Positions 35,915 to 36,501 of a stretch of DNA of 64,000 bases are shown here, piece after piece. This stretch comes from Escherichia phage vB_EcoM_G4507. The position numbers and the translations under genes were made by a program. Below the pieces are notes generated by a model. The model searched no databases. It was not told where the DNA came from and saw nothing but the letters and a program-made list of their open reading frames with translations. The DNA lies in the sequence record NC_054919.1, one strand, 5' to 3'. Position 1 is the first letter of the stretch. Each line of letters opens with the position of its first letter.

Positions 35915-35945
35915 ACCAAAAAGCCCCAACCTTTTGGTCGGGACT
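35915..35945 (-). terminator. Intrinsic terminator-like hairpin plus U-run (repeat copy 1)
   Basis: Minus strand CCCGAC-loop-GTTGGGGC followed by TTTTTGG; 3' of IP-like gene. Confidence 0.5.
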
Positions 35946-35952
35946 AAGAATG

Positions 35953-36426
35953 TTATTTGATTTGTTTAGCAGACCAAATGCGGTCTTTAATAATTTTTTG
36001 GATGTCTTCAACATACTCGAGAGAATGAGCATGTGGGTTATCTTTAAAGCTATGAGCACGAGCTAGCTTTTGGCCTTCAGTTTTGATTACTAAAAGCTCT
36101 TTAAGGATAGCTTCATATTTGGAGATAATTCCTTTAACGATATTTTTTTCTTGTGCGACTTTAGGATCTGCTTTAGGAGCAGGTTTACCCGAAGCCTTTG
36201 CAAAAGCAGCGCCAGTAGCAACTAAACTTTTCCAGGCCATACTAACTGCATTTCCCGTAAATCCTTCCGCTTTCATGTCGCGTGCGAACTGGAATCGTGA
36301 TTCATCAGAAGCATCTTTGTAAGAATATTTACCCGCTGCAATGGCTGCTTTTGCGACAGCTTGAATTTCGGTGCTAGATGCTTCATTTAACACCGCTTCA
36401 TTTAAAAATTGAGTATATGATTTCAT
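35953..36426 (-). CDS. Internal-protein-like protein with capsid-targeting sequence
   Basis: ATG at 36426 (AGGA SD) gives MKSYTQFLNEAVLNEA...; Ala/Lys-rich; flanked by repeated terminator hairpins. Confidence 0.55.
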   Translation of the reverse strand: MKSYTQFLNEAVLNEASSTEIQAVAKAAIAAGKYSYKDASDESRFQFARDMKAEGFTGNAVSMAWKSLVATGAAFAKASGKPAPKADPKVAQEKNIVKGIISKYEAILKELLVIKTEGQKLARAHSFKDNPHAHSLEYVEDIQKIIKDRIWSAKQIK

Positions 36427-36472
36427 CTTATTTCCTGTTTTAATTTGTAGATTTAATATACTAATATTTATA

Positions 36473-36501
36473 CCAAAAAGCCCCAACCTTTCAGTCGGGG
36501 C
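36473..36501 (-). terminator. Intrinsic terminator-like hairpin plus U-run (repeat copy 2)
   Basis: Minus strand GCCCCGAC-TGAAAG-GTTGGGGC followed by TTTTTGG; ends the tRNA/small-RNA transcription unit. Confidence 0.55.

What the first reader, a model, noticed from the sequence alone, without database searches (positions are those of the whole stretch)
35915..36501. Internal-protein-like gene bracketed by two copies of a roughly 30-bp terminator repeat
Near-identical elements ACCAAAAAGCCCCAACCTTT..GTCGGG.CTAAG occur at about 35915-35945 and 36473-36503, directly flanking the gene at 35953-36426 (MKSYTQFLNEA… capsid-targeting start). On the minus strand each folds as a hairpin plus U-run. Direct repeats around a single gene could mediate cassette exchange by recombination; the ip loci of T-even phages are known to be hypervariable.
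Basis: partly seen in the sequence, partly recalled or inferred. Interest (0 to 1): 0.45.

Follow-up and report, generated by a model that had tools for sequence, protein, structure and literature searches.

The report
Terminator-flanked internal-protein gene cassette in T4-like phage
A small gene for a probable capsid-packaged, injected protein sits in a T4-like phage between two copies of the tRNA-operon transcription terminator, and related phages have zero, one or two such genes at exactly this spot, so the repeated terminator marks the edges of a gene cassette that comes and goes; this kind of shuffling is known in these phages, but this locus and gene family are not annotated as such.

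Summary
A 36-nt direct repeat (33/36 identical) lies at 35913-35948 and 36470-36505. On the minus strand each copy is a 10-bp GC-rich hairpin followed by a U-run. The window is a Tequatrovirus. The upstream copy (T1) is the terminator that ends the tRNA/rnaD/rnaC operon. T4 and T2 have a single copy there and no gene.

The gene between the copies (157 aa, here "ipA") starts with the T4 capsid-targeting sequence, is basic, and is preceded by a late promoter TATAAATA that overlaps the end of T1. Relatives show four states at this site:
- empty;
- ipA only;
- a second such gene, ipB, only;
- ipA plus ipB.

Site length is exactly 239 + 557a + 677b nt, and 557 is the repeat period. All four states occur on one of two ~89%-identical left-flank haplotypes and three on the other. 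Mosigvirus phages carry a genus-specific variant in both repeat copies.

The best explanation is gain and loss of an insulated cassette by homologous recombination between terminator copies.

The kind is known (Repoila 1994; PeSL elements). The RB51 GenBank record already notes the repeat. However, this is a third internal-protein locus with a different repeat type, and its genes are annotated only as "hypothetical".

The parts
36470..36505 (-). T1, the upstream copy of the 36-nt repeat. It is the intrinsic terminator of the tRNA/rnaD/rnaC operon (hairpin 36479-36502, U-run 36474-36478).
   Evidence: It is the same element as the single terminator after species 1 RNA in T4 and T2. T4 record X03016.1 annotates it as 'pot. 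stem-loop; pot. terminator'.
36465..36472 (-). T4-type late promoter TATAAATA. Its first three bases (TAT) are the last three of T1.
   Evidence: Read from the sequence. It is conserved directly after the U-run in 13 of the 15 ipA-bearing loci examined; the two Mosigvirus ipA' loci (APCEc01, Shf125875) have only AATAAATA (7/8). It also precedes ipC in Mosigvirus G2469. The SA21RB GenBank record annotates it as a late promoter. No sigma-70/early-type promoter is found between T1 and the ATG.
36433..36436 (-). Shine-Dalgarno AGGA, 6 nt upstream of the ATG at 36426.
   Evidence: Read from the sequence. The U115 record annotates a ribosome-binding site at the equivalent place.
35953..36426 (-). 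ipA: a 157-aa basic protein with an N-terminal capsid-targeting sequence (MKSYTQFLNE|AVLNE|A). It is a candidate injected internal protein and belongs to phrog_2280.
   Evidence: Homologues are present in 510 phage records. Every homologue whose annotation was listed is named 'hypothetical' or 'Uncharacterized'. There is no Pfam family. The AF2 model is all-helical with pLDDT 75, and it has no PDB fold match.
36397..36426 (-). Codons 1-10, the capsid-targeting sequence with a predicted prohead-protease site after Glu10. A second LxE site follows after Glu15.
   Evidence: Alignment with T4 IPI, IPII and IPIII. The roles of the residues come from PMC9026906.
35913..35948 (-). T2, the downstream copy of the repeat. 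It terminates ipA (hairpin 35922-35945) and is followed by the same GGTATCTAGGCC context that follows the single terminator in T4 and T2.
35913..36469 (-). The 557-bp ipA cassette unit: one repeat copy, the late promoter, ipA and a spacer. It is absent from T4 and T2.
   Evidence: The distance from the rnaC end to the e.8 ATG is 796 nt in the window and 239 nt in T4 and T2. The difference of 557 nt equals the repeat spacing.
36506..36810 (-). Left flank: homologues of T4 rnaD and rnaC (species 2 and species 1 stable RNAs), the last genes of the tRNA operon.
   Evidence: Colinear with T4 rnaD/rnaC. ARAGORN calls a 'tRNA-Lys' inside it. Rfam has no hit at gathering threshold.
35755..35783 (-). 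Right flank: the early promoter of e.8 (TTTACA N17 TACTAT with TG). The e.8 CDS is 35448-35711.
   Evidence: The promoter belongs to the same 53-nt repeat family as the promoters that flank the ipI-locus gene.

Best explanation
The window comes from a T4-like phage (genus Tequatrovirus). The upstream repeat copy (T1) is the resident intrinsic terminator that ends the tRNA/rnaD/rnaC transcription unit.

A 557-bp self-contained expression cassette sits immediately behind T1. It consists of a late promoter that overlaps the last bases of T1, a ribosome-binding site, a 157-aa gene (ipA) and a second copy of the same terminator (T2).

The ipA product carries the capsid-targeting sequence of T4 internal proteins. 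It is therefore most probably made late, loaded into the prohead core, trimmed by the prohead protease after Glu10 or Glu15, and injected with the DNA. By analogy with T4 Ip1-3, it would act there against a host defence such as a GmrSD-type restriction enzyme.

Because both ends are terminators and the next gene (e.8) has its own early promoter, the cassette is insulated and can be added or removed without disturbing its neighbours.

The two 36-nt copies are substrates for the phage's very active homologous recombination. A crossover between T1 and T2 deletes ipA and regenerates the T4/T2-type empty site exactly. A crossover between a terminator in one genome and the other copy in a co-infecting genome, or in a circular excision product, inserts or stacks cassettes. 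A single unequal crossover between an ipA-only and an ipB-only phage gives ipA+ipB plus the empty site.

Shown: the repeat and its hairpins; the empty, single and double occupancy states with breakpoints in the terminator; the additive lengths; the mosaic flanks; the copy-specific sharing of lineage variants. Inferred: the recombination mechanism itself, packaging and processing of the protein, and its anti-defence role.
For: - **Phage identity.** The region is 99.7% identical to Escherichia phages ECP52 and KMB23, and 751 related records match.
- **Empty site.** T4 and T2 have one terminator copy followed by GGTATCTA(A/G)GCC, with 239 nt from the rnaC end to the e.8 ATG.
- **ipA-only state.** Found in the window, RB51, Kha5h, RPN226 and two IMG/VR contigs (784-798 nt where the e.8 start was found).
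- **ipB-only state.** Found in ESh36 (916 nt).
- **ipA+ipB state.** Found in U115, G29, ime09, SA21RB and two IMG/VR contigs (1472-1486 nt).
- **Additive lengths.** The site length is 239 + 557a + 677b.
- **Junctions.** After the U-run only three alternative right-hand contexts occur: the e.8 side, the ipA cassette, or the ipB cassette.
- **Approximate census of phage records.**
  - ipA only: about 276.
  - ipA+ipB: about 126.
  - ipB in total: 165, so ipB only is about 39.
  - Empty: about 37.
- **Haplotypes.** The left flank exists as two haplotypes about 89% identical. All four occupancy states occur on one of them and three (all but ipB-only) on the other. ESh36 ipB is 100% identical to G29 ipB although their left flanks are 89% identical.
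- **Mosaic window.** The window matches U115 to the left of 36446 and matches RB51 from 36355 onward.
- **Lineage variants.** In the Mosigvirus phages APCEc01 and Shf125875 both repeat copies carry the genus-specific CCCCTTCC arm, whereas Tequatrovirus copies have CCCCGACC. SA21RB has CCCCAACC in both copies.
- **Locus specificity.** The listed rows show 1-2 copies per genome, rarely 3 (813 records, 1283 places in all).
- **Hairpin conservation.** 97% of cells are paired, and all Tequatrovirus substitutions preserve pairing in the minus-strand RNA.
- **Protein features.** The targeting-sequence residues, basic pI and late promoter are shown.
- **Literature for the mechanism and protein class.** PMC2839356, PMC4122927, PMC3012670, PMC9026906 and PMC12373910.
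Against: - **No direct observation.** No recombination, mini-circle or spontaneous deletion was seen. Everything rests on comparing genomes.
- **Homology length.** 36 nt is at the low end of the homology T4 recombination needs; Arbiol et al. cite Singer 1982 for '<50 bp patches'.
- **Crossover position.** The one crossover I could place in the window (between 36446 and 36355) lies just downstream of T1, in the 5'UTR and targeting-sequence codons, not inside the repeat. The whole region is mosaic, so general recombination in any homologous stretch also contributes.
- **The ipB cassette** shares only GGGCTTTTT (9 nt), plus GGTAT beyond it, with T1/T2 at its distal end. Its original insertion therefore cannot be explained by the 36-nt homology.
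- **Direction of change** (gain or loss) is not resolved.
- **Packaging** of ipA has not been shown. I found no virion proteomics that mention it, and its fold matches nothing known.
- **Hairpin covariation** has no double compensatory changes, and the shuffle control does not discriminate.
Confidence: 0.75

Rival explanations
1. The two copies are simply two good terminators that look alike because both must terminate transcription. The similarity is functional convergence or shared ancestry, and it plays no part in gene gain or loss. The indels arose by unrelated illegitimate events.
For: The hairpin core with a GAAA tetraloop is a generic strong design. An identical 26-nt core, CCCCGACCGAAAGGTTGGGGCTTTTT, occurs in an unrelated 251-kb IMG/VR contig with no IP-like gene nearby. 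The ipB cassette uses a different hairpin at its distal end.
Against: Identity extends beyond the hairpin into CTTAG and GGTAT. The ipA indel equals the repeat period exactly, and removing one period reproduces the T4/T2 sequence. The listed genomes carry only 1-2 copies (rarely 3), at this locus wherever checked. Lineage-specific arm variants are shared by both copies within a genome in two genera.
Confidence: 0.1
2. Turnover of the cassette is driven mainly by homing endonucleases of the neighbouring tRNA region (SegB-type GIY-YIG enzymes). Double-strand-break repair then co-converts flanking DNA, including presence or absence of the cassette. On this view the repeats are by-products.
For: T4 carries segB inside the tRNA cluster and has the empty site. 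RPN226 has a GIY-YIG gene next to tRNA-Arg and a divergent (84%) ipA. The PeSL paper cites SegB-driven preferential inheritance of the T4 tRNA region (Brok-Volchanskaya 2008; reference list seen, citation). The left flank (rnaD/rnaC) is strongly mosaic.
Against: Co-conversion explains the spread of whole haplotypes, but not why every indel boundary falls in a terminator or why the indel length equals the repeat period. The window, T2 and most ipA carriers have no endonuclease gene in this interval. All four occupancy states occur on one left-flank haplotype and three on the other.
Confidence: 0.1
3. The gene is not an internal protein. The N-terminal resemblance to the capsid-targeting sequence is a relic or a coincidence, and the product acts inside the infected cell late in infection without being packaged.
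For: Every homologue whose annotation was listed is annotated 'hypothetical' or 'Uncharacterized'. PHROGs files the family (phrog_2280) under unknown function, whereas T4 IPI, IPII and IPIII families are 'internal virion protein'. I found no proteomic evidence.
Against: The four experimentally critical positions of the targeting sequence are present in both ipA and ipB (Y4, F7, L8, E10). The divergent ipC leader conserves the equivalent residues (F4, F7, L8, E10). All three proteins are basic with pI 9.5-9.75, like T4 IPs at 9.35-9.65. ipA and ipC are preceded by a consensus late promoter, as expected for a prohead component. In the whole window the motif occurs only here and at the ipIII-side locus.
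Confidence: 0.15

Closest known systems
Hypervariable IP loci of T-even phages (Repoila, Tetart, Bouet and Krisch 1994, EMBO J 13:4181; paper not held, known through PMC2839356, PMC4122927, PMC3012670 and PMC12373910)
   Same: The genes are small, unrelated or distantly related, and share only the N-terminal capsid-targeting leader. Their number, order and identity vary between close relatives. Repeated regulatory sequences lie 5' and 3' of the ORFs and are proposed to mediate shuffling.
   Different: The locus is different: rnaC-to-e.8, downstream of the tRNA operon, rather than ipI or ipII/ipIII. [quoted passage not shown] The repeat is also different. Here it is a strong GC-rich intrinsic terminator abutting a late promoter. 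There it is a ~70-bp early promoter with a weak AT-rich stem-loop, and that type is present in this window around the true ipI gene.
PeSL / PmSL regulatory cassettes (Arbiol et al. 2010, PMC2839356; Comeau et al. 2014, PMC4122927)
   Same: A composite of a terminator stem-loop and a promoter sits between small non-essential ORFs. The ORFs are flanked by two copies. Indels between close relatives have their breakpoints in the element. The modules are transcriptionally insulated. The proposed mechanism is homologous recombination or mini-circle excision and integration.
   Different: There is no early or middle promoter; the promoter is the late TATAAATA. Listed genomes hold only 1-2 copies (rarely 3), at one locus wherever checked, rather than dozens spread over hyperplastic regions. 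Mini-circles were not tested here.
T4 tRNA-operon terminator after species 1 RNA (rnaC), annotated in X03016.1
   Same: T1 is that element. It has the same position and is 35/36 identical to the T4 copy.
   Different: T4 has a single copy followed directly by the e.8 promoter region. Here it is duplicated around a gene.
T4 internal proteins IPI, IPII and IPIII (Ip1-3), injected inhibitors of distinct GmrSD type IV restriction enzymes (PMC12373910)
   Same: They share the capsid-targeting leader with an (L/I)xE cleavage site, small size, basic charge, non-essential status and patchy distribution.
   Different: There is no detectable sequence similarity outside the leader. ipA belongs to a different PHROG family. 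Its target and its packaging are unknown.

Membership tests
Rho-independent (intrinsic) terminator | A GC-rich hairpin immediately followed by a U-run on the transcribed strand | tested here: met
   Both copies have 10 pairs (6 G-C), a 4-nt loop and then UUUUU. They fold at -19.0 and -17.0 kcal/mol with z about -3.4. Substitutions among 14 copies keep 97% of cells paired in the minus-strand RNA.
Rho-independent (intrinsic) terminator | Demonstrated termination of transcription | not testable with these tools
   Only annotation is available: 'pot. terminator' in X03016.1 and predicted terminators in the G29, SA21RB and Kha5h records.
T4-type internal (capsid-targeted, injected) proteins | An N-terminal ~10-residue capsid-targeting sequence, with residues 4 and 7 critical for targeting and residues 8 and 10 for processing | tested here: met
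   ipA starts MKSYTQFLNE and ipB starts MKTYAEFLTE, against T4 IPII/IPIII MKTYQEFIAE. The roles of the residues come from PMC9026906.
T4-type internal (capsid-targeted, injected) proteins | A small, basic, non-essential protein with a patchy distribution | tested here: met
   The predicted mature protein is 142-147 aa with pI 9.6, against T4 IPs at 9.35-9.65. The gene is absent from T4 and T2 and present in about 400 records.
T4-type internal (capsid-targeted, injected) proteins | Late expression compatible with prohead assembly | tested here: met
   The consensus late promoter TATAAATA lies 38 nt upstream of the ATG and is conserved in 13 of the 15 ipA-bearing loci examined; the two Mosigvirus ipA' loci have AATAAATA (7/8). 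This is sequence evidence only; no transcript data are available.
T4-type internal (capsid-targeted, injected) proteins | Physical presence in the virion, cleavage by the prohead protease, and injection | not testable with these tools
   I found no proteomic report.
T4-type internal (capsid-targeted, injected) proteins | Encoded in one of the two described IP loci (ipI; ipII/ipIII) | tested here: not met
   The gene lies between rnaC and e.8. The ipI-locus gene of the window is 39708-39992 (PF11634). An ipIII-side leader ORF is at 31221-31340.
PeSL (promoter-early stem-loop) cassettes | A stem-loop terminator directly upstream of a strong sigma-70-like or T4 early promoter within one repeated unit | tested here: not met
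   No early-type promoter hit lies between T1 and the ipA start. A late promoter is there instead.
PeSL (promoter-early stem-loop) cassettes | Many dispersed copies enriched in hyperplastic regions | tested here: not met
   The window has two copies. The listed rows show 1-2, rarely 3, per genome (813 records, 1283 places in all).
PeSL (promoter-early stem-loop) cassettes | Copies flank ORFs that are present or absent between close relatives, with breakpoints in the element | tested here: met
PeSL (promoter-early stem-loop) cassettes | Formation of mini-circles by recombination between flanking copies | not testable with these tools
   This needs inverse PCR on infected cells.
Transposable element or homing-endonuclease cassette with target-site duplication | Encodes a transposase, integrase or homing nuclease, or has terminal inverted repeats | tested here: not met
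   The only ORF of 60 aa or more fully inside the 557-bp unit is ipA (the scan's 56-aa minus-frame and 79-aa opposite-strand ORFs are regarded as spurious). ipA has no Pfam hit. No inverted terminal repeats were found beyond the hairpins themselves.

The most novel reading that the evidence does not exclude
The terminator of the tRNA operon is a dedicated third landing site for injected anti-defence proteins in T-even-type phages. A composite of a terminator and a late promoter (a late-promoter analogue of the PeSL) captures and stacks cassettes of one diversifying family (phrog_2280: ipA, ipB, ipC). Exchange may be promoted by a sequence-targeted pathway acting on the GGGC/U-run end of the hairpins, the motif Mosig et al. 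1998 found at T4 deletion endpoints. The model phages T4 and T2 happen to be among the roughly 8% of records with the site empty, which would explain why the locus was missed.
Probability: 0.2. Interest if true: 0.6.

Novelty: new member of a known kind. Interest (0 to 1): 0.35.

Why it matters
Internal proteins are the first phage products to meet host immunity. T4 Ip1, Ip2 and Ip3 were recently shown each to disable a different GmrSD-type restriction enzyme (PMC12373910). That literature counts two IP loci, and an earlier paper states that IP genes are absent elsewhere in T-even genomes (PMC2839356).

If ipA, ipB and ipC are packaged, several hundred sequenced therapeutic and model Tequatrovirus and Mosigvirus phages carry one or two unrecognised injected proteins. 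These would be ready candidates for new anti-defence activities and for host-range differences between near-identical phages.

The locus is also a clean natural example of insulated cassettes shuffled at short regulatory repeats. It has four states, exact junctions and additive lengths. It could be used to measure how much homology such shuffling needs, or as a neutral insertion site for engineering capsid-targeted cargo.

The mechanism itself is not new, and the flanking repeat is already noted in the RB51 GenBank record.

Tried and rejected
- **IMG/VR scan.** An exact-pattern scan for the hairpin core gave only 6 loci. Four were the same locus in T4-like contigs. Two were unrelated contigs sharing only the hairpin core. 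This was too small for a census, so I used the GenBank phage collection instead.
- **Function of ipA.**
  - Pfam gave nothing.
  - PHROGs gave only an 'unknown function' family.
  - The large protein database gave 13 relatives, all in T4-like phages, none with a functional name.
  - The AF2 model (pLDDT 75, pTM 0.45, all-helical) had no Foldseek PDB match below E = 2.
- **ipA versus ipB.** BLASTP aligns only the 11-residue leader. Their shared PHROG membership is the only sign of remote homology.
- **Hairpin covariation.** It preserves pairing but shows no double compensatory change, and the shuffle control does not discriminate. I do not use it as proof.
- **Literature.**
  - Repoila 1994 is not held.
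  - The supplement of the PST paper is not held.
  - The ORF names RB32ORF132c and RB69ORF149c occur in no held paper.
  - Searches for virion proteomics led nowhere.
  - I therefore cannot exclude that Comeau et al. 2007 ('more than 30 IP variants') already counted these genes.
- **Transposon or homing-element explanation.** Considered and rejected: there is no enzyme gene and no terminal inverted repeats.
- **Diagnostic junction queries.** Queries for the empty and ipB-only states were not usable directly, because the tool joins the T1 and T2 pieces into one place. Those two counts are therefore obtained by subtraction and are approximate.
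Full report
**1. The observation**

The repeat is real. The repeat finder reports two copies of 36 nt at 35913-35948 and 36470-36505, 33/36 identical and 557 nt apart.

On the minus strand both copies score as intrinsic terminators: a 10-bp stem with 6 G-C pairs, a 4-nt loop, then UUUUUGGUAU. They fold at -19.0 and -17.0 kcal/mol, with z about -3.4 against shuffles.

The enclosed ORF is 35953-36426 on the minus strand, 157 aa, starting MKSYTQFLNEA.

**2. Where this is**

The window is a Tequatrovirus. The region is 99.7% identical to Escherichia phages ECP52 and KMB23, and 751 phage records match.

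On the minus strand the gene order is as follows:
- a tRNA cluster from Gln to Arg (38192 to 37178);
- a 116-aa ORF;
- homologues of the T4 stable RNAs rnaD and rnaC (36810 to 36506);
- repeat copy T1;
- the gene;
- repeat copy T2;
- the early promoter and gene of e.8.

In T4 the interval between rnaC and e.8 has no gene and holds one copy of the same sequence: GTTAGCCCCGACCGAAAGGTTGGGGCTTTTTGGTAT, followed by CTAAGCCTTTCC. The 1985 T4 tRNA-region record annotates it as a potential terminator after species 1 RNA. T1 is therefore the resident terminator of the tRNA operon.

This is not the ipI locus or the ipII/ipIII locus. The window's true ipI gene is 39708-39992 (Pfam IPI_T4). It is flanked by a different repeat, a 53-nt early promoter with a stem-loop.

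**3. The cassette**

Directly after the U-run of T1 the minus strand reads GGTATAAATATT. The T4 late-promoter consensus TATAAATA (36472-36465) takes its first three bases from the end of the repeat. An AGGA ribosome-binding site and the ATG follow. No early-type promoter is predicted there.

T2 follows the stop codon after 4 nt. It is followed by GGTATCTAGGCC, the same context that follows the single copy in T4 and T2.

Removing one 557-nt period from the window reproduces the T4/T2 arrangement. The distance from the rnaC end to the e.8 ATG is 796 nt in the window and 239 nt in T4 and T2.

**4. Relatives show four occupancy states**

I fetched the locus from 15 phage records and 4 IMG/VR contigs.

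| State | Phages | rnaC end to e.8 ATG |
|---|---|---|
| Empty | T4, T2 | 239 nt |
| ipA only | window, RB51, Kha5h, RPN226, two IMG/VR contigs | 784-798 nt where the e.8 start was found |
| ipB only | ESh36 | 916 nt |
| ipA then ipB | U115, G29, ime09, SA21RB, two IMG/VR contigs | 1472-1486 nt |

- ipB is a 187-aa gene starting MKTYAEFLTEA.
- The lengths are additive: 239 + 557a + 677b.
- After the U-run only three contexts occur:
  - GGTATCTAGGCC, the e.8 side;
  - (G/A)GTATAAATA, the ipA cassette;
  - AGTTTGAATCAC, the ipB cassette.
- ipB ends in its own, different hairpin, which shares only GGGCTTTTT(GGTAT) with the repeat.

Junction-specific searches give an approximate census of records:
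- about 276 ipA only;
- about 126 ipA+ipB;
- 165 with ipB in total, hence about 39 ipB only;
- about 37 empty (313 empty-or-ipA-only, minus 276).

These counts are of database records, which include duplicates, and two of them are obtained by subtraction. T4 and T2 are in the minority empty state.

**5. Is the repeat a generic terminator?**

No. A blastn search with the 36-mer finds 1283 places in 813 records. Every listed row has 1 or 2 places, rarely 3, and in Tequatrovirus the places checked are at this locus.

The hairpin core alone can occur elsewhere. An identical 26-nt core lies in an unrelated 251-kb contig. What is specific here is the full 36-mer and its duplication.

**6. Signs of recombination**

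- **Haplotypes.** The left flank (rnaD/rnaC) has two haplotypes about 89% identical. All four occupancy states occur on one of them and three (all but ipB-only) on the other.
- **Identical cargo on different flanks.** ESh36 ipB is 100% identical to G29 ipB, although their left flanks are 89% identical.
- **Mosaic window.** In a three-way comparison the window follows U115 up to 36446 and RB51 from 36355 onward. A crossover therefore lies just downstream of T1, in the 5'UTR and leader codons.
- **Genus-specific variants.** In the Mosigvirus phages APCEc01 and Shf125875 an ipA homologue (77-80% identity) is again flanked by two copies, now more diverged. Both copies carry the genus-specific arm CCCCTTCC, whereas Tequatrovirus copies have CCCCGACC. 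SA21RB has CCCCAACC in both copies. This means either concerted evolution of the copies or independent insertions that reused the resident terminator. Either way, the copies exchange sequence.
- **Caveat.** The whole region is mosaic, so the repeats are not shown to be hotspots. What is shown is that they are the indel boundaries.

**7. The protein**

- **Leader.** Aligned with T4 IPI, IPII and IPIII, ipA and ipB share the leader M-K-x-Y-x-x-F-(I/L)-x-E followed by Ala. Mutational work locates targeting at residues 4 and 7 and processing at residues 8 and 10 (PMC9026906). ipA and ipB have Y4, F7, L8 and E10.
- **Charge.** The predicted mature proteins are basic, with pI 9.5-9.75, like T4 IPs at 9.35-9.65.
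- **A third cargo.** Mosigvirus G2469 has a third gene, ipC (208 aa, MYTFNEFLAETEVITEA), at the same place, again with TATAAATA abutting the U-run.
- **Family.** ipA, ipB and ipC all fall in phrog_2280, 'unknown function'. BLASTP aligns only the leader between ipA and ipB.
- **Annotation.** Every listed database name for the three clusters is 'hypothetical' or 'Uncharacterized', apart from one spurious 'isopenicillin N synthase-like dioxygenase' label on ipB.
- **Fold.** The AF2 model is an all-helical two-part protein (pLDDT 75) with no PDB match.
- **Status.** Packaging, processing and function are inferred. By analogy with Ip1-3, each of which blocks a distinct GmrSD enzyme (PMC12373910; PMC9391042), an injected anti-defence role is the most likely.

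**8. Mechanism**

The cassette is insulated. T1 stops tRNA-operon transcripts, the cassette has its own late promoter and its own terminator, and e.8 has its own early promoter.

Homologous recombination between the 36-nt copies explains all the transitions:
- T1 x T2 within one genome deletes ipA and yields the empty site, and potentially a circle.
- The reverse crossover inserts ipA.
- T2 of an ipA-only genome x T1 of an ipB-only genome gives ipA+ipB plus the empty site.

This also predicts the only tandem order seen (ipA before ipB), because ipB's distal hairpin lacks homology.

It is the logic proposed for the IP loci by Repoila et al. 1994 and demonstrated for PeSL elements, with mini-circles, by Arbiol et al. 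2010.

Rivals:
- convergent terminators with no role in recombination;
- homing-endonuclease-driven co-conversion;
- the product is not an internal protein.

These fit fewer of the facts and are detailed in the rival explanations.

**9. Comparison with what is known, and novelty**

The kind is known. The GenBank record of RB51 already notes of this ORF (RB32ORF132c) that it is 'flanked by 34 bp imperfect direct repeat'. SA21RB annotates the late promoter and the terminators.

Three things appear not to be recorded:
- The ORF and its neighbours carry the capsid-targeting leader.
- The site is a third IP-type locus. [quoted passage not shown]
- The shuffling repeat here is a strong terminator fused to a late promoter, rather than an early promoter with a weak stem-loop.

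I could not read Repoila 1994 or Comeau 2007, so earlier mention of these genes cannot be excluded.

I rate it a new member of a known kind, of moderate interest. A T4 specialist would not be surprised by the mechanism. The finding does supply specific, testable candidates for injected anti-defence proteins in several hundred sequenced phages.

Noticed in passing
window 30866-31340 (minus strand), just downstream of the lysozyme gene e (31429-31923): A 39-aa ORF (31221-31340) starts with a perfect capsid-targeting leader, MKTYQEFITEAAINSQ..., and stops early. An out-of-frame 120-aa ORF (30866-31228) follows. This looks like an ipIII-side internal-protein gene split by a frameshift, or a leader-only remnant.
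   Followed up: no
window 39649-39701 and 40012-40064, flanking 39708-39992: The true ipI gene (Pfam IPI_T4) is flanked by 53-nt direct repeats (81% identical), each an early promoter with an internal inverted repeat. This is the classical IP-locus / PeSL-like element. The promoters at 35744-35796 (e.8) and 35407-35459 belong to the same family.
   Followed up: partly
window 36809-37159 (minus strand): A 116-aa ORF (phrog_3355, similar to RB69ORF150c) sits exactly between tRNA-Arg and rnaD, which are nearly contiguous (5 nt apart) in T4. T4 instead has the homing-endonuclease gene segB between tRNA-Ile and tRNA-Arg. This is another presence/absence cassette inside the tRNA transcription unit.
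   Followed up: no
window 36552-36645 (minus strand): ARAGORN calls a 94-nt 'tRNA-Lys(ttt)' inside the rnaC (species 1 RNA) homologue. The Rfam tRNA model does not reach threshold there. Several GenBank records (G29, phage 55) annotate it as tRNA-Lys, and others as rnaC.
   Followed up: no
protein P0013 (94 aa, from a 2898-nt Logan contig): This is a fusion of the N-terminal part of Trna.3 with the last 30 residues of ipA. It implies a natural deletion that removed the whole tRNA cluster, rnaD/rnaC, T1 and most of ipA.
   Followed up: no
L017 (Mosigvirus G2469) 2344-2970; proteins P0009 and P0010: ipC (208 aa) at the same site has a C-terminal segment (DTPDLYRLYL...) resembling the C-termini of P0009 and P0010 (Yersinia phage fHe-Yen9-01, Klebsiella phage KP01). 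The N-terminal halves of P0009 and P0010 resemble ipA. This suggests domain shuffling within the family.
   Followed up: no
L007 8606-8634 (251-kb IMG/VR contig) and L008 5-29: The same hairpin core, CCCCGACCGAAAGGTTGGGGCTTTTT, occurs as a terminator-like element in contigs otherwise unrelated to T4-like phages. The stem-loop alone is therefore not diagnostic of this locus.
   Followed up: partly
window 34873-35406 compared with T4 e.7, and relatives L011, L013, L014: The gene between e.6 and e.8 is itself polymorphic: 177 aa here and 172 aa as annotated in RB51, 111 aa (e.7) in T4, 58 aa in T2 and Kha5h, and 132 aa in ime09 and SA21RB. Promoter/stem-loop repeats lie at its borders. This is a neighbouring replacement hotspot.
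   Followed up: no
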